64,000 nt of DNA, taken from contig CAXXLZ010000002.1 in assembly GCA_963675595.2 (NCBI GenBank), positions 2,464,001 through 2,528,000 of the forward strand, in the 5' to 3' direction. Source of the stretch: Thermodesulfobacteriota bacterium (GTDB taxonomy: Bacteria; Desulfobacterota; Desulfarculia; JACQYL01). This document shows, in pieces, positions 6,612-25,090 of the stretch; within the stretch, counting starts at the first letter, position 1; each line of letters begins with the position of its first letter. The notes beneath the pieces are model-generated. The model worked only from the letters and a program-made list of their open reading frames with translations, had not been told where the DNA came from and did no database searches. The position numbers and the translations under genes are program-made.

Positions 6612-6693
6612 CTTTCCGCCGGAGGCGGTAAGGCCTGTCCAACGTGCTTTGGGAGGGGGCTCGGGGGAGGACTTTCCCGAAAGTCCTCCCCCG
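6612..6693 (-). repeat. REP-like repeat family A (GGAGGACTTT variant)
   Basis: Hairpin CGGGGGAGGACTTTC-CC-GAAAGTCCTCCCCCG plus a second TCCGCC-GGA-GGCGG hairpin; homologous to 14294, 25009 and 12112. Confidence 0.8.
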
Positions 6694-6744
6694 CTAGCCG
6701 GCCTCACCTTCCCCCGAGCGCATCGATCAATGCTGTCGGCCCGT

Positions 6745-10195: not shown

Positions 10196-10296
10196 GCGCC
10201 CGCCGGACCACCCATGTTCACTGGGGGAAATACCATGTTGGCCTCAGGTGCTCGATCGTTATGATGGAGCATCACCCAAACAGAAAGGAGACCAAC

Positions 10297-11385
10297 ATGG
10301 TAGCAACGAAAGTAACAGAATTGGCCAAGTTTTTGGAGCTGGATATCGACCGTGATTTCCACGTCGGGATCGACGTACACAAAAAGAGCTACCACGTGGC
10401 CGTGCTTCGCAGCGACGGCGAGGTGAAGACTTTTGTGTCCTCGGCCTCTCCGGAGGCCATCGTGGCCATGTTGCTCCCCCACTTGAGGCGCATCCGAGCC
10501 GTAGCCTACGAAGCGGGGCCCACCGGCTTCGGCCTTGCGCGCACTTTGGCCAAAGCCGGGTTCAGCGTGATCGTGGTGGCGCCGAGTCGGGTCCCTAGGC
10601 CGGTGACTGCGGGGGCCAAGACCGACCGCCTGGATTGCATGCGGTTGGCGGACCATGCCGCCCGAGGGATATTGAAGTCCATCGCCGTTCCCACGGAGGA
10701 AGAGGAGGCCGAACGCAGCGTAATTCGCCGTCGGCACGATCTGGCCGACGGCACTCGACGCGTTAAGCAGAGAATTCAATCCCTTCTGCTGTTTCACGGT
10801 GTGGAGGCGCCTCCCGGGCTCAATCATTGGGGCCGAAGCGCTGTGGCGCAACTTCGAAAGCTTCGTCTGCCGAAGGAGGCCAAAGCGACGCTGCTCAGCT
10901 TGCTCCGTGAGTTGAATTTCCTCACAAAGGAAAAAGCCTTCATGGAGGAAAGGACTTCCAGTGTGTGCGAGAAACCTGAACACTTTGAGGAAATGCGATG
11001 CCTTCGAAGCGTCCCCGGGGTGGGTCCCATCACAGCGGCTACCTTCCTCCTGGAATTGTTTCGCCCGAGTCGGTTCCATCGGGTGGAGGAAGTGACCAGC
11101 TATCTGGGACTCGCACCGTTGGTAAGACAAAGCGGAGAGCGGAAATCTCGAGTGGCGCTTCCTCCCGTGGGTCAGACGCGACTGCGGAGTCTGTTGGTGG
11201 AGGCGGCCTGGACGTGGAAGTCCAGGGATCCGGCCATTGATTCGCATTATCGAAAACTCCTGTCGCGAACGGGCCTTCCACAAAAGGCCATTTGTGCGTT
11301 GGCACGGAAACTGGCCGTTGTTCTATGGCGATTGACCATGGAAAAACGGACCTATGAATTTCGTCTCCAAGCGGACCAAGCATGA
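10297..11385 (+). CDS. IS110-family DEDD recombinase/transposase
   Basis: VGIDVHK, YEAGPTG and KTDRLD (D-E-D-D); VPGVGPITA and RQSG catalytic Ser region; AAGGAG RBS. Confidence 0.95.
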   Translation: MVATKVTELAKFLELDIDRDFHVGIDVHKKSYHVAVLRSDGEVKTFVSSASPEAIVAMLLPHLRRIRAVAYEAGPTGFGLARTLAKAGFSVIVVAPSRVPRPVTAGAKTDRLDCMRLADHAARGILKSIAVPTEEEEAERSVIRRRHDLADGTRRVKQRIQSLLLFHGVEAPPGLNHWGRSAVAQLRKLRLPKEAKATLLSLLRELNFLTKEKAFMEERTSSVCEKPEHFEEMRCLRSVPGVGPITAATFLLELFRPSRFHRVEEVTSYLGLAPLVRQSGERKSRVALPPVGQTRLRSLLVEAAWTWKSRDPAIDSHYRKLLSRTGLPQKAICALARKLAVVLWRLTMEKRTYEFRLQADQA

Positions 11386-11600
11386 GCCGGTTAGGACTTG
11401 TTTAGGAGAACCCAACCGGCTCGGGACCCATACTTGAGGTGGGTCCCGAGCCTCAAGCCGGGAGAAAAAAGCGGAGACGGCCGCGATAAAGTTTGGCTGC
11501 ATCGGTAGCGCTGGGGAAATGGCGGCATCTTCGCTTCTACATCGCATGTGTACTTGGCGCTTCGGGCGCGAATAGGAAACGGTTATCCAATTCCGGCTTG
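11386..11600 (+). ncRNA. Putative bridge/seek RNA of IS copy 1
   Basis: Structured 3' NCR with internal loops carrying CTGGGGAAA/AAAGTTT (target match) and ATAGGAAA/CATGTGTACTT (donor match); transcript boundaries unknown. Confidence 0.75.
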
Positions 11601-11620
11601 ACTTGAGGCCACATAGGAAA

Positions 11621-11690
11621 CTTTCGAGAAAGTTACCCCCAGTCCCCTTTCCAAGCTCTTCAAGAACGCCTCACCGCCTTCGGCGGAGAG
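11621..11690 (+). repeat. Right part of REP family A copy interrupted by IS copy 1 (left part 10221-10230)
   Basis: Removing the IS gives the hairpin CTGGGGGAAACTTTC-GA-GAAAGTTACCCCCAG followed by ...CCTCACCGCCTTCGGCGGA. Confidence 0.85.
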
Positions 11691-11718
11691 GAGAGAGATA
11701 AGCAGGCCTTGGGCGCTA

Positions 11719-11979
11719 TTATAGCTTTTGCAGCAAAAATTCCTCCATCTTGCTTTTATTAATGGCGATACGAGGGGGCACCCATTCGTTATTCAAAAAG
11801 ACATTTGTCGAACCTTTGAATTTATGGGCATGCGGTTTGGCCTCTTCCGAATCGAGAGTGTATATCTTCACGTCCAGTCTTCCCTCGAATTTTTCCCGCA
11901 TGTCTTCGGCTACACCTATAGCCCTTCCGCATGCGATTCAACGGGCATTGCCGCTGTGAAACACGATCAACTCAGCCAT
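11719..11979 (-). CDS. Small thioredoxin-like selenoprotein (UxxC), 86 aa, in-frame TGA at 11940-11938
   Basis: AAGGAGG RBS then MAELIVFHSGNAR-TGA-IACGRAIGVAEDMREKF...; SECIS-like hairpin immediately 3' of the UGA. Confidence 0.8.
11897..11935 (-). promoter_or_regulatory. Bacterial SECIS-like hairpin
   Basis: mRNA CGCAUG...GGCUAU-AGGU-GUAGCC...CAUGCG; apical stem begins 14 nt after UGA. Confidence 0.7.
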
Positions 11980-12111
11980 TTTCCGTTCCTCCTTATTTCC
12001 GGTTCGGTAGCTGTTGGAGGTCGAATGGATTCACTGTATTCTTCCTTGTTCATAGCACGTCCGGCCGACATTTTCCTGCGAGTTGATTTGACCACCGCTC
12101 TATAGAGATTC

Positions 12112-12189
12112 ACTGTGGGAAACTTTCGGGAACGTTTCCCACAGTTCCTCTTCCAAGCTCTTCAAGAAGGCCTCACCGCCTTCGGCGGA
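12112..12189 (+). repeat. REP family A, empty (uninserted) copy
   Basis: ACTGTGGGAAACTTTCGGGAACGTTTCCCACAGT...TTCCAAGCTCTTCAAGAAGGCCTCACCGCCTTCGGCGGA; near-identical to the IS-flanking sequence. Confidence 0.85.
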
Positions 12190-12237
12190 ATGAAATGCGG
12201 CTTGTGCGCCGAAAAACCATCCAGAGGGATCGGTCGG

Positions 12238-12987
12238 CTAAACGATGCCGCCGTTCACATAGATTGTCTGGCCGTTCACCCAGCCGGCATCCGGACCGAC
12301 CAGAAACGCCACGGCATCGGCGATGTCCTCAGGCCGACCGAGCCGCTCCAACGGCGGCATCTTGGCCAATTGTTCGACCTGTTCGTCCGTTTTGTTTTTC
12401 AGAAAAAGGTCGGTTGCCGTTGGTCCGGGTGCGACGGCGTTCACCGTAACGTTTCGGCCGCGCAATTCCTTGGCGAAGATATTCGTCAGCGTCGCCACGG
12501 CGGATTTCGTGGCCGCGTACACCGAATAGCCGGGCAAGCCGAGCTTGCGCACGCTGGAAGAAAGATTGACGATTCGCCCGCCGTCGCGCAGTTTTCCGGC
12601 TGCAACCCGCAGTGTGTTGAATGTGCCCTTGAAATTGACGGCGACAATTTTGTCGAAAAGCGCATCATCCGTATCGGCCAGAGAAATCAGGCCCGGCTGC
12701 ATGATTCCGGCGTTATTCACGAGAATATCAACACCGCCGAAAAGCGCGGCGGTTTGGTCGAACATGGCCGCCACCTGCCCGGGCACCGAAACATCGGCCT
12801 GGATCGCCACTGCTCGGCCTGGTCCGGCTTCGATCTCTCGCACTACGACATCGGCTGCATCGGCCCGACCCGCATAGTTTACAATTACGGCGATGCCGTC
12901 GGCGGCCAGACGTTTGGCAATGGCTGCGCCGATTCCGCGCGATGATCCTGTGACAATGGCCACTTTGGTTTCCGTTGAAGTCTTCAT
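12238..12987 (-). CDS. Short-chain dehydrogenase/reductase (SDR)
   Basis: TGSSRGIG, NNAG and YAATK motifs. Confidence 0.93.
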   Translation of the reverse strand: MKTSTETKVAIVTGSSRGIGAAIAKRLAADGIAVIVNYAGRADAADVVVREIEAGPGRAVAIQADVSVPGQVAAMFDQTAALFGGVDILVNNAGIMQPGLISLADTDDALFDKIVAVNFKGTFNTLRVAAGKLRDGGRIVNLSSSVRKLGLPGYSVYAATKSAVATLTNIFAKELRGRNVTVNAVAPGPTATDLFLKNKTDEQVEQLAKMPPLERLGRPEDIADAVAFLVGPDAGWVNGQTIYVNGGIV

Positions 12988-13096
12988 GGCAGCCTCCTTT
13001 GTTCTGTTTGAATGCTTTATACTTCACCGACAATATGGTACCGAGTTTTGAATTTCGGTAGACGCATAAACGGCATGACGGCTATACTGTTTTGGT

Positions 13097-14017
13097 ATGA
13101 CCGTATTCGACGACCTCTCTTTGGTTCGGGCTTTCGTCTGCATCGTGGAAAACGGCGGCATTTCCGCTGCGGCCCGCAAGCTCCGGCGAACTCAACCGAC
13201 GCTGAGCCGTTATTTGCGCACACTGGAAGATCGCTGCGGCACCGTATTGCTGTATCGGGATACGCACCGCATACGCCTCTCGTCCGCCGGCCATCAATTC
13301 TTGGAGGACGCGCGATCCCTCCTGGCATTGGCGGAAGAAGCCGAACAACGCCTGCGCAACGACCAGGCAACCCTTCAGGGTAATATCCGCCTGTTCGCGA
13401 CCATCGACTTCGGCCAAAGTGTCGTCAGCCGCATGATTACCGGTTTTATTCAGGCCAACCCCGCCGTAACCATCGACCTGGCTTATTCCAACCGCCCTTT
13501 GCATATGCTCGAAGAAGGATGCGATGTCGGCATCGTCGCGGGCGCCGTCACGGATGATACGGTTGTCGCATGCTCCATCGGCCCCATTAAACGCTATCTT
13601 GTCGCCTCTCCAGCGCTCCTGAGAACGCATAAAGCCGTTTCCAGCCCCATGGAACTTCAATCCTGGCCGTGGTTGACGTTGTCCGGCGCGCAATTCGGCG
13701 GTGGGCGGGAAGTAACGCTTTATTCGTCGGAACAAGAAGAACAGAAGTTGACCGTATCACCGGTCATGACATCCGAAGGTGTGAGCAGTCTGCGTGAAGC
13801 GGTACGTTTGGGGCTTGGGATCGCCGTTTTACCGGAATGGCTGATTGAGGAGGACATTGTTTCGGGCCGGCTTATCAGGGTTCTGCCTGAGTGGCGAAGC
13901 GGAAACCTACCGGCCCACATCGTTTACCCGGTGCAGCGACGCTTGCCGTCGCGCGTCCGAACTTTCATTGACTTTGCGACCGCTTATATGACCACGGTTT
14001 TGCAGTCAGGTAGGTGA
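13097..14017 (+). CDS. LysR-family transcriptional regulator (divergent from the SDR)
   Basis: N-terminal HTH (ISAAARKLRRTQPTLSR); CrgA-like substrate-binding domain. Confidence 0.93.
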   Translation: MTVFDDLSLVRAFVCIVENGGISAAARKLRRTQPTLSRYLRTLEDRCGTVLLYRDTHRIRLSSAGHQFLEDARSLLALAEEAEQRLRNDQATLQGNIRLFATIDFGQSVVSRMITGFIQANPAVTIDLAYSNRPLHMLEEGCDVGIVAGAVTDDTVVACSIGPIKRYLVASPALLRTHKAVSSPMELQSWPWLTLSGAQFGGGREVTLYSSEQEEQKLTVSPVMTSEGVSSLREAVRLGLGIAVLPEWLIEEDIVSGRLIRVLPEWRSGNLPAHIVYPVQRRLPSRVRTFIDFATAYMTTVLQSGR

Positions 14018-14293
14018 ATCCAACTGTTTCAAGACAAAGAAACCAAAAGAGGCCTGACCCTTTCGGCTTGGCTTGAAAAGAGGTTTGCAGCCCTTCAACG
14101 GAAGGAGTATTTATTAGGTAGATCTAGAGCAAGAGCCTCGTACCGGTTTGAAAGGAGTCACGGCGTGGGTTCCTTCGGTTTCGAGGCGGTTTCCGTCCCC
14201 ATGAGGACGGAGCCCATCCCGTGAGCTTCTTTGCCCATTCAGAAGAGGTAAGGAACGTTGGAAATGGGCGAGCAGCCCTTCTTTCCCCCCGGG

Positions 14294-14368
14294 CTCTCCG
14301 CTGAATGCGGTGAGGCCTGTCCAACGTGCAAGGTGGCTCGGGGGAGGACTTTCCCGAAAGTCCTCCCC
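14294..14368 (-). repeat. REP family A (GGAGGACTTT variant)
   Basis: GGTGAGGCCTGTCCAACGTGC...GGGGGAGGACTTTCCCGAAAGTCCTCCCC; same as 6612-6693. Confidence 0.8.
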
Positions 14369-14419
14369 TGTGAAGGATTCCCTCGTTTCGTCTTTGCTGC
14401 GTCCCTCCGGGAAGAAAGG

Positions 14420-16012
14420 ATGTGGAAAATGAGGATTCGGCTTGCGGTATTCGCTCTTGTCCTGATTTTCGCGGCTGTTCTCTGTTCCTGCGACTCCGGT
14501 ACCAAAACGGACGGCGTTCCCGGCGACAACAAGGTCCCGGCCTCCGTCCTAGCCCTGGCCTCCTCCGTGACCGAGGACCTGGAGGCCCGGGGGTACGAGG
14601 TGGTGCGAGGCTACATGCAGCTCTTCACCATGGACGATTGCGCCCTGGCCATCGCCAAGACGGGCCAGTGCTTCGGCAACAACCCCACCGGACCTTATGT
14701 CTTTCCCGTGGTTCCCGCCTGGTCCGAGGAATACATCGACCCCACCACCCTCAACGTCTTCGGGGAAAACGCGGACGGGTACCTGACCATTCGGCGCTTC
14801 GACCCGCGGGAAGCGACCCTGGTCTTCGGCGTCATGCCGCCGGCGGCCCGCTACTTCGGCTTGCAGACCTACCAGTACACCCGCGAGGGCACGGTGGATA
14901 CCGACAACGAGGTGTATCAGTTGGTGCTGAACACCTTCCCCTTCATGCTGGACCAGTTCTTCGGCCCCGCACCCAACGGGCGGCTCCTTTCTTTCGCCAG
15001 CATCAGCAACAACAATAACAACGCGGTGTTCGAGCGCCGGGCCGGCTCCTTTTTCGATCAAGTGCGGTTCTTCGTCGTCACTCCGGACCAGGCCATGGAC
15101 ACGGCCGTGCGCGCGGCCCTCGCCCGGGCCGAGGTTTCCGACAGCGACATCGTCACCGAATCCATCGCCTCTCCGGTAACCCTGGGCCTGGACAAGGAAG
15201 CGGACGACCTCATCACCGTGATACGCTACGCCCTGCCGGACGACGAGGAAGCCGGAGAGTTGTGGCGCCATGACCTTCCCCTGGTGGTATTACGCGTGCG
15301 GGACCGCGGCGACCGGGCTCCGGAACCCTGGCCCGCTTTCGAGCACCCCCAGGAACGCTTCGACACGAGCGAACTCTATCTTTCAACCGACTTGAATGCC
15401 TTGAACAACAACGTTCGTGCCGCCTGGGGCCTCGACCCGGCCCCCAGCCCGCCCGGCGTGGCCGACCGCATGCTGGACCTTCAACGGGCCTACCCCTTCG
15501 ATCTGGTGGGACCGGACTGCATCCGGAACACCATGAACTGCCTGGCCGACACCCAGGACACCTCCTATGCCGGCACCGCCAACGTGTATCTGGAAAACGA
15601 CGCCGGCGACCAGTTCCTTTATGCCGTTGTCGGCACCCTGGGCACGGAAACGGGGAACGCCACCTACACCAGCCTGTCCGTGTACCGGGCCGCCGTGGTC
15701 ATGGGCGTGGCCAACGTGGACGACGGACAACTGCTGCAATCCCAGTCCTACTTTCCTCAAGAGCCCAACTCTTTCAACAACCAGGACAAGTTCTACCTCT
15801 GGTACTTCGGCCGGACCTGCGCGGCCGCGCCCGAAGCAATCTGCACCGAGATCAACGAGGACCAGATTCCCTTGGGCGAACCCATGAAGTTGGCCCTCCG
15901 GAACTACATCCGGCCCGGCGATGTCCGGGGGCCCAACACCGATCCGCCCGACGATCCCAAAGGCGTCAGTCCCCTGCTGCCGGCCTGGGTCACCGCCATT
16001 CCCCTGCCCTGA
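14420..16012 (+). CDS. Hypothetical lipoprotein
   Basis: Signal peptide with LCSC lipobox; long GC3-rich ORF with several Cys. Confidence 0.75.
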   Translation: MWKMRIRLAVFALVLIFAAVLCSCDSGTKTDGVPGDNKVPASVLALASSVTEDLEARGYEVVRGYMQLFTMDDCALAIAKTGQCFGNNPTGPYVFPVVPAWSEEYIDPTTLNVFGENADGYLTIRRFDPREATLVFGVMPPAARYFGLQTYQYTREGTVDTDNEVYQLVLNTFPFMLDQFFGPAPNGRLLSFASISNNNNNAVFERRAGSFFDQVRFFVVTPDQAMDTAVRAALARAEVSDSDIVTESIASPVTLGLDKEADDLITVIRYALPDDEEAGELWRHDLPLVVLRVRDRGDRAPEPWPAFEHPQERFDTSELYLSTDLNALNNNVRAAWGLDPAPSPPGVADRMLDLQRAYPFDLVGPDCIRNTMNCLADTQDTSYAGTANVYLENDAGDQFLYAVVGTLGTETGNATYTSLSVYRAAVVMGVANVDDGQLLQSQSYFPQEPNSFNNQDKFYLWYFGRTCAAAPEAICTEINEDQIPLGEPMKLALRNYIRPGDVRGPNTDPPDDPKGVSPLLPAWVTAIPLP

Positions 16013-16104
16013 CGCGGTATGAAATGCCTCTGGGGAAATACCATGTTGGCCTCAGGTGCTCGATCGTTATGATGGAGCATCACCCAAACAGAAAGGAGAC
16101 CAAC

Positions 16105-17193
16105 ATGGTAGCAACGAAAGTAACAGAATTGGCCAAGTTTTTGGAGCTGGATATCGACCGTGATTTCCACGTCGGGATCGACGTACACAAAAAGAGCTAC
16201 CACGTGGCCGTGCTTCGCAGCGACGGCGAGGTGAAGACTTTTGTGTCCTCGGCCTCTCCGGAGGCCATCGTGGCCATGTTGCTCCCCCACTTGAGGCGCA
16301 TCCGAGCCGTAGCCTACGAAGCGGGGCCCACCGGCTTCGGCCTTGCGCGCACTTTGGCCAAAGCCGGGTTCAGCGTGATCGTGGTGGCGCCGAGTCGGGT
16401 CCCTAGGCCGGTGACTGCGGGGGCCAAGACCGACCGCCTGGATTGCATGCGGTTGGCGGACCATGCCGCCCGAGGGATATTGAAGTCCATCGCCGTTCCC
16501 ACGGAGGAAGAGGAGGCCGAACGCAGCGTAATTCGCCGTCGGCACGATCTGGCCGACGGCACTCGACGCGTTAAGCAGAGAATTCAATCCCTTCTGCTGT
16601 TTCACGGTGTGGAGGCGCCTCCCGGGCTCAATCATTGGGGCCGAAGCGCTGTGGCGCAACTTCGAAAGCTTCGTCTGCCGAAGGAGGCCAAAGCGACGCT
16701 GCTCAGCTTGCTCCGTGAGTTGAATTTCCTCACAAAGGAAAAAGCCTTCATGGAGGAAAGGACTTCCAGTGTGTGCGAGAAACCTGAACACTTTGAGGAA
16801 ATGCGATGCCTTCGAAGCGTCCCCGGGGTGGGTCCCATCACAGCGGCTACCTTCCTCCTGGAATTGTTTCGCCCGAGTCGGTTCCATCGGGTGGAGGAAG
16901 TGACCAGCTATCTGGGACTCGCACCGTTGGTAAGACAAAGCGGAGAGCGGAAATCTCGAGTGGCGCTTCCTCCCGTGGGTCAGACGCGACTGCGGAGTCT
17001 GTTGGTGGAGGCGGCCTGGACGTGGAAGTCCAGGGATCCGGCCATTGATTCGCATTATCGAAAACTCCTGTCGCGAACGGGCCTTCCACAAAAGGCCATT
17101 TGTGCGTTGGCACGGAAACTGGCCGTTGTTCTATGGCGATTGACCATGGAAAAACGGACCTATGAATTTCGTCTCCAAGCGGACCAAGCATGA
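16105..17193 (+). CDS. IS110-family DEDD recombinase/transposase
   Basis: Translation identical to 10297-11385. Confidence 0.95.
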   Translation: MVATKVTELAKFLELDIDRDFHVGIDVHKKSYHVAVLRSDGEVKTFVSSASPEAIVAMLLPHLRRIRAVAYEAGPTGFGLARTLAKAGFSVIVVAPSRVPRPVTAGAKTDRLDCMRLADHAARGILKSIAVPTEEEEAERSVIRRRHDLADGTRRVKQRIQSLLLFHGVEAPPGLNHWGRSAVAQLRKLRLPKEAKATLLSLLRELNFLTKEKAFMEERTSSVCEKPEHFEEMRCLRSVPGVGPITAATFLLELFRPSRFHRVEEVTSYLGLAPLVRQSGERKSRVALPPVGQTRLRSLLVEAAWTWKSRDPAIDSHYRKLLSRTGLPQKAICALARKLAVVLWRLTMEKRTYEFRLQADQA

Positions 17194-17408
17194 GCCGGTT
17201 AGGACTTGTTTAGGAGAACCCAACCGGCTCGGGACCCATACTTGAGGTGGGTCCCGAGCCTCAAGCCGGGAGAAAAAAGCGGAGACGGCCGCGATAAAGT
17301 TTGGCTGCATCGGTAGCGCTGGGGAAATGGCGGCATCTTCGCTTCTACATCGCATGTGTACTTGGCGCTTCGGGCGCGAATAGGAAACGGTTATCCAATT
17401 CCGGCTTG
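17194..17408 (+). ncRNA. Putative bridge/seek RNA of IS copy 2
   Basis: Same as 11386-11600 (AAAGTTT 17296-17302; CTGGGGAAA 17319-17327). Confidence 0.75.
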
Positions 17409-17428
17409 ACTTGAGGCCACATAGGAAA

Positions 17429-17497
17429 CTTTCGAGAAAGTCTCCCCCAGTCCCCTTCAAAGCTCTTCAAGAAGCCTCACCGCCTTCGGCGGAGAGG
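17429..17497 (+). repeat. Right part of REP family A copy interrupted by IS copy 2 (left part 16030-16038)
   Basis: CTTTCGAGAAAGTCTCCCCCAGTCCCCTTCAAAGCTCTTCAAGAAGCCTCACCGCCTTCGGCGGAGAGG. Confidence 0.85.
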
Positions 17498-24601: not shown

Positions 24602-24997
24602 TTGGCCGGGATTCTTGTCATAGACGACGACATTCAGATCAGGAACATGCTCAAAGCCATCCTGGAACGTGAAGGGCACCGGGTGGAGTTGGCTTACGAA
24701 GGCGAGGAGGGCCTGCGCAAATGCCGTGAATCGAGACCCGACCTGGTCATCACCGATCTGATCATGCCCGGCAAAGAGGGCATCGAAACCATCAAAGAGA
24801 TGAAGCGAGGATTCCCCGGCATTCTGATCATCGCCATGTCCGGCGGGGGGCGCAACCGACCCGAGGTCTATCTGGACCTTGCCGGCGCCATTGGAGCGGT
24901 CCGCACCTTTGCCAAGCCCATCCGAAAAGACGAACTGCTGGCCGTGGTTCGTGAAGTCCTGGACCTACGGACGGATGCTACGGTCCAAACCATCTAA
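24602..24997 (+). CDS. Single-domain response regulator receiver
   Basis: ILVIDDD, TDLIMP (phospho-Asp), AMSGG and KP motifs. Confidence 0.92.
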   Translation: MAGILVIDDDIQIRNMLKAILEREGHRVELAYEGEEGLRKCRESRPDLVITDLIMPGKEGIETIKEMKRGFPGILIIAMSGGGRNRPEVYLDLAGAIGAVRTFAKPIRKDELLAVVREVLDLRTDATVQTI

Positions 24998-25008
24998 TAA
25001 GCATTTAC

Positions 25009-25090
25009 GGTGGAGGACTTTCGGGAAAGCCCTCTCTCGTACCCCATCCCAAAGCACGTTGGACTGGCCTCACCGCCTTCAGCGGAGAGG
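25009..25090 (+). repeat. REP family A (GGAGGACTTT variant)
   Basis: GGAGGACTTTCGGGAAAGCCCTC...CCCAAAGCACGTTGGACTGGCCTCACCGCCTTCAGCGGAGAGG. Confidence 0.75.

What the first reader, a model, noticed from the sequence alone, without database searches (positions are those of the whole stretch)
10221..17497. Both IS copies are inserted at the same base of a REP-like hairpin; an empty site and non-matching variants are also in the window
Excising copy 1 regenerates CTGGGGGAAACTTTC-GA-GAAAGTTACCCCCAG, and excising copy 2 gives CTGGGGAAACTTTCGAGAAAGTCTCCCCCAG. Both are followed by ...AAGCTCTTCAAGAA...CCTCACCGCCTTCGGCGGA. An unoccupied sibling at 12112-12189 has TGTGGGAAACTTT, a weaker match to the CTGGGGAAA guide. 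Family members at 6612, 14294 and 25009 carry GGAGGACTTT, lack the GAAA core and are empty. Inference: the RNA guide is programmed against a multicopy intergenic repeat (a safe-harbour strategy, as known for IS621 and REPs), and repeat variants escape insertion.
Basis: partly seen in the sequence, partly recalled or inferred. Interest (0 to 1): 0.75.

Follow-up and report, generated by a model that had tools for sequence, protein, structure and literature searches.

The report
RNA-guided insertion sequence targeting a REP
Two identical copies of a small jumping gene of the IS110/IS1111 type sit at the same base of a short repeated hairpin, apparently steered there by a guide RNA the element itself encodes; this behaviour is already known from related elements in other bacteria.

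Summary
Window 10231-11616 and 16039-17424 are identical 1386-bp IS110-family elements of the IS1111 type. Both are inserted after GGGGAAA in the 5' arm of a REP-like hairpin.

The genome holds 8 full copies. Five lie in this hairpin subfamily, on either arm. One lies in a different hairpin and two lie at non-repeat look-alike sites, one of them inside an open frame.

In-register occupancy falls steeply with mismatches to GGGGAAACTTT: 5 of 24 exact sites, 1 of 247, 1 of 2283 and 1 of 16867. Among 155 REP units, 5 of 10 exact-match units are occupied and 0 of 145 others (p = 3.6e-7).

The 3' non-coding end folds into an internal loop. Its 5' side is complementary to AAACTTT and its 3' side is identical to CTGGGGAAA. 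In six related lineages these loop sequences change together with the flanks.

REP targeting by IS110-family elements and their bridge/seek RNAs is established, so this is a new member of a known kind.

The parts
10221..10230 (+). Left half of the interrupted REP-A hairpin at copy 1 (CTGGGGGAAA): left target plus A-run core
10231..11616 (+). IS copy 1, 1386 bp (TACCATGTTGG...GGCCACATAG), counted without the shared GAAA
   Evidence: 100% identical to copy 2 and to 5 other genome copies
10231..10302 (+). Left end. TACCAT (10231-10236) is a candidate -10 of a circle-junction promoter. 10231-10245 is 93% complementary to 10288-10302, which covers the ribosome-binding site and the ATG
   Evidence: pair I2; reading; function inferred
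10239..10249 (+). Left subterminal inverted repeat; its partner is 11601-11611
   Evidence: pair I15: 11 nt, 91% complementary
10297..11385 (+). Transposase/recombinase gene, 362 aa: DEDD RuvC-like domain plus Transposase_20 domain, with the motif GLAPLVRQSG
   Evidence: PF01548 1.3e-15; PF02371 4.1e-22; NF033542, 228.5 bits against cut-off 140
11418..11452 (+). Perfect 13-bp hairpin just after the stop codon, upstream of the guide RNA region
   Evidence: (pair I8)
11480..11526 (+). Predicted target-binding loop. Outer stem GCCGC/GCGGC. 5' side ATAAAGTTT (11486-11494) is complementary to top-strand AAACTTT. Inner hairpin 11495-11510. 3' side CTGGGGAAA (11511-11519) is identical to the top-strand left target
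   Evidence: covariation with flanks in relatives
11545..11579 (+). Predicted donor-binding loop. 5' side ...GTACTT, inner hairpin GCGC-TTCGG-GCGC, 3' side AATAGGAAA (identical to the right IS end ATAG plus GAAA). GTAC and CGAATAGGAAA are invariant in 8 of 8 aligned lineages, as are the IS ends
   Evidence: the pairing to the ends was read by eye
11598..11603 (+). TTGACT, a candidate -35. In a circle it would lie 17 bp (13 bp of the right end plus GAAA) from TACCAT of the left end
   Evidence: reading; TTGAC conserved in the 7 lineages aligned there; function inferred
11601..11611 (+). Right subterminal inverted repeat
   Evidence: pair I15
11617..11688 (+). Right part of the interrupted REP-A unit at copy 1: rest of hairpin 1, spacer and conserved second hairpin
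12099..12190 (+). Unoccupied sibling REP unit (TGTGGGAAACTTT; 1 mismatch on one arm, 2 on the other)
16030..16038 (+). Left half of the interrupted hairpin at copy 2 (CTGGGGAAA). This is the only site in the genome matching the 13-base CTGGGGAAACTTT exactly
16039..17424 (+). IS copy 2 (guide segments at 17294-17302 and 17319-17327)
17425..17494 (+). Right part of the interrupted REP-A unit at copy 2
6614..6705 (-). REP unit of the GGAGGACTTT subfamily, uninterrupted
14296..14387 (-). REP unit of the GGAGGACTTT subfamily, uninterrupted
24996..25087 (+). REP unit with a GGAGGACTTT-type hairpin, uninterrupted

Best explanation
The two copies belong to an unnamed IS110-family insertion sequence of the IS1111 type. 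It has a DEDD recombinase gene, short subterminal inverted repeats and a 231-nt non-coding right end. That right end encodes a bridge/seek RNA. One internal loop of the RNA carries a 5' segment that pairs with the top strand of the target (AAACTTT) and a 3' segment that pairs with the bottom strand (opposite CTGGGGAAA). The two segments overlap on the A-run, where strands are exchanged. A second loop matches the element's own joined ends. The element presumably excises as a circle whose junction (right end, GAAA, left end) forms a -35/-10 promoter, and then recombines into any site reading about GGGGAAA|CTTT. That motif sits in the stem of one subfamily of a lineage-specific bipartite REP, so most copies land there, on either arm. 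REP subfamilies with other stem sequences do not match and stay free of this IS. Shown here: anatomy, site preference, guide-site complementarity, and covariation across relatives. Inferred: the RNA itself, the circle, the promoter and the exchange point.
For: Family: PF01548 and PF02371; NF033542 'IS110 family RNA-guided transposase', 228.5 bits against cut-off 140; GL-P----SG motif. Subterminal inverted repeat of 11 nt. Left non-coding end 66 nt against 231 nt on the right. Copies: 8 full-length among 10 BLAST hits, 7 of them identical. All 8 have the same junction type, and flank similarity between copies ends with the repeat unit. In-register occupancy by mismatches to GGGGAAACTTT in the IS-excised genome: 5 of 24, 1 of 247, 1 of 2283, 1 of 16867. 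REP units: 5 of 10 exact against 0 of 145 (p = 3.6e-7). RNA: the 235-nt right end folds with z = -4.1, placing the two site-matching segments on opposite sides of one internal loop. The consensus fold of 8 lineages keeps the outer stem, the inner hairpin and the second hairpin, and 9 of 14 pairs show a compensatory change. Covariation in 6 lineages: left-guide agreement with the cognate flank is 4.33 of 5 against 1.47 of 5 for non-cognate pairs; right guide 7.0 of 8 against 4.3 of 8 (sequences). The order (top-strand match 5' of bottom-strand match, overlapping in the target) is the one reported for IS1111 seekRNAs (PMC11187229, section 9, read in full). A public-run contig joins 16034 to 17424, an uninterrupted allele of copy 2's site (one 77-nt contig with 25 letters on the short side, so weak).
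Against: No RNA data: no listed run is on record as RNA, Rfam has no matching family, and the 131-nt core alone does not fold better than shuffles (z = -0.24). The right guide agrees with the REP for only 7 bases, and one copy (C2:476837) has 3 mismatches on the right side, so the right half contributes little or is tolerant. Six REP-A hairpins with an exact site are empty with no distinguishing feature. The covariation test rests on 6 lineages, several with a single copy, and on loop boundaries that I set by regular expression. No circle junction or transposition event was observed. All laid runs were contigs.
Confidence: 0.85

Rival explanations
1. The recombinase recognises the REP hairpin as a DNA structure or protein-binding motif without an RNA guide. 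The matches in the right end would then be by-products, for example target sequence carried along or end-recognition sites.
For: 5 of 8 copies are in one hairpin type and a sixth is in another hairpin. The site is palindromic. No RNA was observed here.
Against: Two copies sit at non-hairpin sites that share only the left motif. Loop segments covary with the flanks in relatives whose targets are not hairpins. Both segments sit in a conserved internal loop with compensatory stem changes. Family-level experiments show the RNA is required (abstracts of PMC11187229 and PMC11208160).
Confidence: 0.07
2. The copies spread with their REP flanks by segmental duplication or homologous recombination between REP units, not by independent targeted insertion.
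For: Copies C2:1357378 and C2:3698760 share 59 bp of right flank (97%) and 61-168 bp of left flank (84-97%). Half-REP duplications lie beside two copies.
Against: For every pair of copies, similarity stops within 25-168 bp of the junction, about the size of the repeat unit, and the flanks are unrelated beyond that. The insertions occur on both arms and at three non-REP-A sites.
Confidence: 0.03
3. Coincidence: a random-insertion IS that happens to lie twice in the same repeat.
For: None beyond the small number of copies (8).
Against: 5 of 24 exact sites are occupied among 13.6 million scanned positions. Fisher p = 3.6e-7 within the REP family. The junction bases are the same in all 8 copies.
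Confidence: 0.01

Closest known systems
IS1111-group elements with a seekRNA (ISEc11, ISPa11, ISKpn4, ISPst6; Siddiquee et al. 2024, PMC11187229)
   Same: DEDD transposase with PF02371 C-terminal domain and the GL-P----SG motif. Subterminal inverted repeats. Long non-coding region downstream of tnp. [quoted passage not shown] ISPa11 is also a REP-specific inserter (abstract of PMC1525189).
   Different: The transposase is 362 aa, against the 330-350 aa range that paper gives. The closest relatives found outside this genome are at most 79% identical (one short contig), and named ones are 55-57% identical. The target is a different, lineage-specific REP. No RNA or transposition data exist for this element. 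Relationship to named ISfinder entries was not tested because no ISfinder copy was on hand.
IS621 of E. coli and its bridge RNA (Durrant et al. 2024, PMC11208160)
   Same: RNA with a target-binding and a donor-binding internal loop. A short core shared by donor and target. Natural insertion into REP elements with some off-REP sites: 144 of 173 mapped insertion sites were in REPs in their assay (passage read).
   Different: IS621 belongs to the IS110 group, with its RNA in the left end upstream of the gene, a CT core and only a 2-3-bp subterminal repeat. Here the RNA is in the right end, the guide segments are in the reverse order, and the exchange point lies in an A-run.
ISPpu9 and ISPpu10 of Pseudomonas putida KT2440 (Tobes & Pareja 2006, PMC1525189; Pares-Guillen et al. 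2025, PMC12288879)
   Same: Several IS110-family copies per genome, each at one fixed position of a REP. New insertions go to look-alike REP sites. Several IS110-family lineages use REPs in one genome. ISPpu10 circles form a hybrid junction promoter.
   Different: ISPpu9 is classed in the IS110 group, has an AG core and forms no junction promoter. Here a -35/-10 pair with a 17-bp spacer is predicted at the junction. The REP here is bipartite, and only one of its stem subfamilies is used.

Membership tests
IS110 family (DEDD recombinase IS) | N-terminal DEDD RuvC-like domain (PF01548) plus C-terminal PF02371 domain | tested here: met
   PF01548 at residues 23-165 (E 1.3e-15) and PF02371 at 234-319 (E 4.1e-22). 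NF033542, 228.5 bits against cut-off 140.
IS110 family (DEDD recombinase IS) | Conserved G(L)-P----S/T-G motif in the C-terminal domain (PMC11187229, section 6) | tested here: met
   ...YLGLAPLVRQSGERK...
IS110 family (DEDD recombinase IS) | Site-specific insertion, no terminal inverted repeats at the very ends, and only a short core shared by element and target instead of a generated duplication | tested here: met
   all 8 copies have GGGGAAA (or GGGAAAA)|TACC... and ...ATAG|GAAA. Copy C2:3243950 confines the exchange to the A-run.
IS1111 group | Subterminal inverted repeats of 7-17 bp | tested here: met
   pair I15: 10239-10249 with 11601-11611, 11 nt, 91% complementary, starting 8 nt and 5 nt inside the ends.
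IS1111 group | Longer non-coding region downstream of the transposase gene | tested here: met
   66 nt upstream (10231-10296) against 231 nt downstream (11386-11616).
IS1111 group | Transposase clusters with IS1111-type transposases in a phylogeny; typical length 330-350 aa | tested here: inconclusive
   Length is 362 aa, just outside the quoted range. No tree with named ISfinder members was built because no ISfinder sequences were available.
Bridge RNA / seekRNA | Internal loop with one segment complementary to the top strand and one to the bottom strand of the target, overlapping at the core; in IS1111 types the top-strand match lies 5' | tested here: met
   with covariation against flanks in 6 lineages.
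Bridge RNA / seekRNA | Second loop matching the joined ends of the element (donor) | tested here: met
   CGAATAGGAAA (equal to the right end plus core) and GTAC (complementary to the left-end TAC) are invariant in 8 of 8 lineages that share the ends TACCATG.../...CACATAG. The left-end pairing has one mismatch and, in this element, one bulge. This was read by eye.
Bridge RNA / seekRNA | The RNA is made, binds the recombinase and is required for recombination | not testable with these tools
   No run on record as RNA. No Rfam family matched.
REP (repetitive extragenic palindromic) elements | Short, multicopy, imperfect palindrome, largely intergenic, lineage-specific | tested here: met
   155 hairpin-plus-tail units. 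The tail pattern occurs 80 times in this genome against 0 in the reversed control, 2 times in one same-family genome and 0 times in the 29 other relatives searched. Intergenic position was checked only for the window units and the IS sites.
REP (repetitive extragenic palindromic) elements | Association with a RAYT (Y1 transposase) gene flanked by REPs (seen in many REP families, not all; from my own knowledge) | tested here: not met
   Three PF01797 matches in the genome; no REP tail or hairpin within 1.5 kb of any of them.

The most novel reading that the evidence does not exclude
The REP family and its resident RNA-guided ISs may be co-diversifying. Hairpin 1 of the repeat has split into stem subfamilies by compensatory changes, and each IS lineage's guide tracks one motif of the repeat. 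Supporting hints: this genome holds three IS110-family lineages plus a TIR-type IS, each using a different position or repeat, and a diverged right-end fragment at C1:339450-339997 carries a left guide changed at 5 of 6 non-core positions while its stems are kept. On this reading, stem variation would be selected partly as escape from insertion, and guide reprogramming as pursuit. A second possibility concerns the two directly oriented window copies 4.4 kb apart. They could move the three genes between them as one larger circle, as reported for the modular circles of ISPpu9.
Probability: 0.12. Interest if true: 0.55.

Novelty: new member of a known kind. Interest (0 to 1): 0.3.

Why it matters
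The locus gives a clean natural example of an IS1111-type bridge/seek RNA whose guide can be read directly against a graded set of natural targets in one genome: exact, 1-, 2- and 3-mismatch sites with occupancy of 21%, 0.4%, 0.04% and 0.006%. It suggests that the left half plus the A-run matters more than the right half. It adds a lineage of such elements, with conserved ends TACCATGTTGG.../...CACATAG and variable guides, that spans several phyla's MAGs. This could serve as comparative material for guide rules in the less-studied IS1111 group. It does not change the known picture of how these elements work.

Tried and rejected
Rfam: no family matched in the whole window at gathering scores, or in 10200-11700 at E up to 1.

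Empty alleles in related genomes: the flank of copy 2 (15300-16030) found only chance-level matches in 30 relatives. The IS DNA was found in none of them above 71% identity. The nearest held genomes are only same-family, so this route gave nothing.

Sequencing runs: no RNA holder listed, and every listed holder is kept as contigs. Starts, ends, circle junctions and expression could therefore not be examined.

Laid runs: parts without cover in X3, X7 and X11 mean nothing.

RAYT link: three Y1_Tnp genes, none near a REP.

Fold of the 131-nt core alone is no better than shuffles.

One search's occupancy counts used a +/-4-base tolerance and over-counted the 2- and 3-mismatch classes. They are replaced by the in-register counts.

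One search's hairpin finder trimmed one unit (C2:4341364 in excised coordinates), so an exact-match unit was scored as 4 mismatches. By there are 11 REP-A hairpins with an exact site, 5 of them occupied.

L041 (43% identity) was left out of the guide tables because its junction could not be placed. L037 matched no loop pattern and its contig ends at the IS, so it enters only the alignment.

Pfam found nothing for the small ORF at 11719-11979; NCBIfam did.

Supplementary files of the papers were not opened. The target logos and IS lists of PMC11187229 and PMC11208160 may already hold a close relative of this element.
Full report
OBSERVATION

The region holds two copies of a 1386-bp element, at window 10231-11616 and 16039-17424. 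They are 100% identical. Each is bounded by ...GGGGAAA|TACCATGTTGG on the left and GGCCACATAG|GAAACTTTCGAG... on the right.

Each is followed by a roughly 30-nt spacer and a second, conserved hairpin (CACCGCC-NNN-GGCGG).

- An uninterrupted sibling lies at 12099-12190 (TGTGGGAAACTTT).
- Uninterrupted units with GGAGGACTTT stems lie at 6614-6705 (-), 14296-14387 (-) and 24996-25087 (+).

In both window copies the 3' arm of the hairpin carries a 1-mismatch version of the motif. This fits insertion in the 5' arm.

WHAT THE ELEMENT IS

- The ORF 10297-11385 (362 aa) has the DEDD_Tnp_IS110 and Transposase_20 domains.
- It passes NCBIfam NF033542, 'IS110 family RNA-guided transposase' (228.5 bits, cut-off 140).
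- It contains GLAPLVRQSG, the G(L)-P----SG motif described for the family (PMC11187229, section 6, read).
- An 11-nt subterminal inverted repeat lies a few bases inside each end (pair I15).
- The non-coding left end is 66 nt and the right end 231 nt.

These are the features that separate the IS1111 group from the IS110 group (PMC11187229 section 6; PMC11208160 passages).

The protein has thousands of relatives (5487 with E <= 0.001 among 8000 scored). Outside this genome the best is 79% identical, on a 1.3-kb contig. Named ones, such as 'IS110 family transposase' of Desulfovibrio and Geobacter records, are 55-57% identical.

GENOME-WIDE CENSUS

The window is C2:2464001-2528000 of a 6.79-Mb, 3-contig genome. 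BLAST of the IS gives 10 hits:
- 8 full-length copies, 7 identical and one 99.2% identical;
- a diverged right-end fragment (81.5% identical; C1:339450-339997);
- a 69-bp left-end fragment.

All 8 full copies have the same junction type. Their locations are:
- Five lie in hairpin 1 of the GGGGAAACTTT ('REP-A') subfamily. Three are on the tail-distal arm reading toward the tail, including both window copies. Two are on the other arm in the opposite orientation, which the palindrome allows.
- One lies in a different hairpin (CCGGGAAAACCTTTTC...).
- One is intergenic with no repeat.
- One lies inside an 885-codon open frame, 53 codons from its end. The upstream part of that frame has Flg_new and fn3 domains.

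Similarity between the flanks of different copies stops within 25-168 bp, so these are separate insertions and not duplicated segments.

In the genome with the IS copies removed, in-register occupancy by mismatches to GGGGAAACTTT is:

| Mismatches | Occupied sites | All sites |
|---|---|---|
| 0 | 5 | 24 |
| 1 | 1 | 247 |
| 2 | 1 | 2283 |
| 3 | 1 | 16867 |

The left 7-mer GGGGAAA is present at 7 of 8 insertions, and the eighth has GGGAAAA. The right AAACTTT is present at 5 of 8.

Among 155 hairpin-plus-tail REP units, 10 carry an exact site and 5 of these are occupied. Occupancy in the other classes is 0 of 43 (1 mismatch), 0 of 36 (2), 0 of 51 (3, the GGAGGACTTT and GGGCGCTTTT subfamilies) and 0 of 15 (4 or more). 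Fisher p = 3.6e-7.

Counting hairpins, 11 REP-A hairpins have an exact site and 5 are occupied. The six empty ones show no distinguishing base.

The REP tail pattern occurs 80 times here, twice in one same-family genome and not at all in the 29 other relatives searched.

THE GUIDE

The right end folds better than shuffles (z = -4.1). It has an outer stem GCCGC/GCGGC and an inner hairpin, enclosing an internal loop.
- The 5' side of the loop, ATAAAGTTT (11486-11494), is complementary to top-strand AAACTTT.
- The 3' side, CTGGGGAAA (11511-11519), equals the top strand left of the junction and would pair with the bottom strand.
- The two overlap on AAA.

This order and overlap are what Siddiquee et al. 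report for IS1111 seekRNAs (PMC11187229, section 9).

A second loop has AATAGGAAA on its 3' side, equal to the right IS end plus GAAA. Its 5' side, ...GTACTT, is complementary to the left end, with one mismatch and one bulge by my reading.

Relatives that share the ends TACCATGTTGG.../...CACATAG but sit at other targets came from two searches:
- a Desulfovibrionaceae MAG with 7 copies and a gammaproteobacterial MAG;
- four genomes of the same class.

In an 8-lineage alignment, the donor-loop bases GTAC and CGAATAGGAAA are invariant while the target-loop segments vary. The consensus fold keeps all three helices, and 9 of 14 pairs show a compensatory change.

The variable loop segments follow the flanks. 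Agreement of the left guide with its own flank is 4.33 of 5 positions, against 1.47 of 5 for other lineages' flanks. For the right guide the figures are 7.0 of 8 against 4.3 of 8. The data are 6 lineages and 30 non-cognate pairs, with loop limits set by my pattern.

The diverged fragment at C1:339450-339997 keeps the stems but has a different left guide. Its right guide matches its own right flank for 9 bases.

MECHANISM: MOST LIKELY AND HOW SURE

Shown by sequence:
- a site preference of about 11 bases, dominated by the left half and the A-run;
- both halves encoded in one loop of a conserved fold;
- covariation across lineages.

Inferred from the family's published biology (abstracts and passages of PMC11208160, PMC11187229 and PMC12288879):
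- The element excises as a circle.
- The right-end TTGACT (11598-11603) then lies 17 bp from the left-end TACCAT, making a junction promoter. TTGAC is conserved in the 7 lineages aligned at that point.
- The transcript yields the recombinase and, from its 3' part, the guide RNA.
- A recombinase-RNA complex pairs target and donor and exchanges strands within the A-run.

Copy C2:3243950, with left junction GGGAAAA, shows that the G before the A-run need not be part of the exchanged core.

The very left end is 93% complementary to the ribosome-binding site and start codon (pair I2). This would silence read-through transcripts but not transcripts starting at the junction promoter. That point is also inference.

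I put 0.85 on RNA-guided targeting of this motif. I put 0.07 on RNA-independent hairpin recognition, which the two non-hairpin sites and the covariation argue against. I put 0.03 on spread by duplication, which argues against.

COMPARISON WITH WHAT IS KNOWN

REPs as specific targets of IS110-family elements were described for ISPa11, ISPpu9, ISPpu10 and others in 2006 (abstract of PMC1525189) and for IS621 (cited in PMC11208160). Bridge/seek RNAs for both groups were shown in 2024.

IS621 also shows a minority of off-REP sites that match the guide (passage). P. putida carries two IS110-family lineages in REPs.

The present element meets the tested defining features of the IS110 family, of the IS1111 group (except the quoted length range, and no tree was built), and of the guide RNA at the sequence level. 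It is a new, unnamed member with a new target, not a new kind.

SUPPORT FROM PUBLIC RUNS (WEAK)

- One 77-nt contig of run X4 joins 16034 to 17424, an uninterrupted version of copy 2's site, with 25 letters on the short side.
- Contigs of X3 and X4 carry the variant type of the IS behind a different left flank that again ends in TGGGGAAA.
- X7 shows the right flank of copy C2:1357378.

All of this is, and all laid runs are contigs.

VERDICT

This is a new member of a known kind. Interest 0.3.

Noticed in passing
window 11719-11979 (-): An 86-codon ORF with one in-frame TGA in the motif HSGNAR-TGA-IAC. It matches NCBIfam NF045809, 'HSGNPxU motif (seleno)protein TsoX' (E 3.5e-34, 116.9 bits against cut-off 52). 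A stable hairpin follows the TGA (z = -3.4). It is probably a selenoprotein gene that ordinary ORF calling would split, and it lies between two REP units.
   Followed up: partly
genome C1:116292, 322062, 352627; C2:256653, 1017571, 2630920, 4148776 (PF01548 hits): A second IS110-family lineage: 7 copies of about 1352 bp with junctions CCCCTT|GTATATTTAGC... and ...CAGTTGC|TTCCCAAAC. By eye, 5 of 7 lie in the spacer just 3' of hairpin 1 of REP-type units, including a second REP type with a different tail hairpin. The REP units are therefore hit at another position by another guide-type IS.
   Followed up: partly
genome C2:318760, 1779121, 4107353, 4267929, 4494868: A third IS110-family lineage: 5 copies of about 1566 bp. 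Four of the 5 right flanks share a roughly 40-bp sequence, which suggests a third repeated target.
   Followed up: no
genome, 30 ends, e.g. C2:550243/551589, C1:1015225/1016571, C3:53800/55146: An IS of about 1346 bp with terminal inverted repeats (ends ...GCTTAAGTTAGCGCTTATG, about 15 copies). It sits at GGGGNCCGGGG / CCCCGGNCCCC-like sites, and at least three of these are the 3' edge of REP hairpin 1. One REP unit near C2:257300 carries both this IS and the group-A IS.
   Followed up: partly
genome C2:4377561-4383603: A CRISPR array of 99 repeats (61-bp period) whose repeat ends in GCGGGGGAAAC. That ending is the left half, the A-run and the first right base of the IS target. Three spacers start with TTT and so create exact 11-base targets. 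None is occupied.
   Followed up: partly
genome C2:3700146-3700290 and C1:345118-345260: Half REP units that begin exactly at the insertion point (TTTCCCCCGG on the + strand). One is a 68-bp tandem duplication directly beside IS copy C2:3698760. The other is a second copy of the right flank of the C1 IS copy, about 750 bp away. These may be scars of recombinase-mediated rearrangement. Unexplained.
   Followed up: partly
L037, L038, L040 (relatives in the same class): Three related ISs sit at cTTAAAAAA|GCC.... To my eye this flank looks like the A-rich frameshift window between orfA and orfB of IS3-family elements, which would be an IS that targets another IS. This was read by eye and recalled from knowledge of IS3. 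It was not tested with a domain search. L038 has 2 in-frame TGA codons.
   Followed up: no
genome C2:2980056-2981442 (99.2% copy); window-equivalent 11082-11140 and 11459-11469: The one non-identical copy differs by 8 substitutions clustered in 59 bp of the gene and by 3 changes in the A-rich linker before the guide loop. The guide segments are unchanged. The same variant type is the one seen in runs X3, X4 and X11. The clustering suggests a recombination patch rather than scattered mutation.
   Followed up: partly
genome C2:3813470-3813538: A solitary 69-bp left-end fragment of the IS (97% identical) that stops at the start codon. Its left flank ends in ...CACGAAA.
   Followed up: no
window 10231-17424: The two directly oriented IS copies bracket 4.4 kb. 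This stretch holds the TsoX-like ORF, an empty REP-A sibling, a 249-aa ORF (-), a 306-aa ORF (+), a GGAGGACTTT REP unit and a 584-aa ORF (+). Whether the whole unit can move as one circle was not examined.
   Followed up: no
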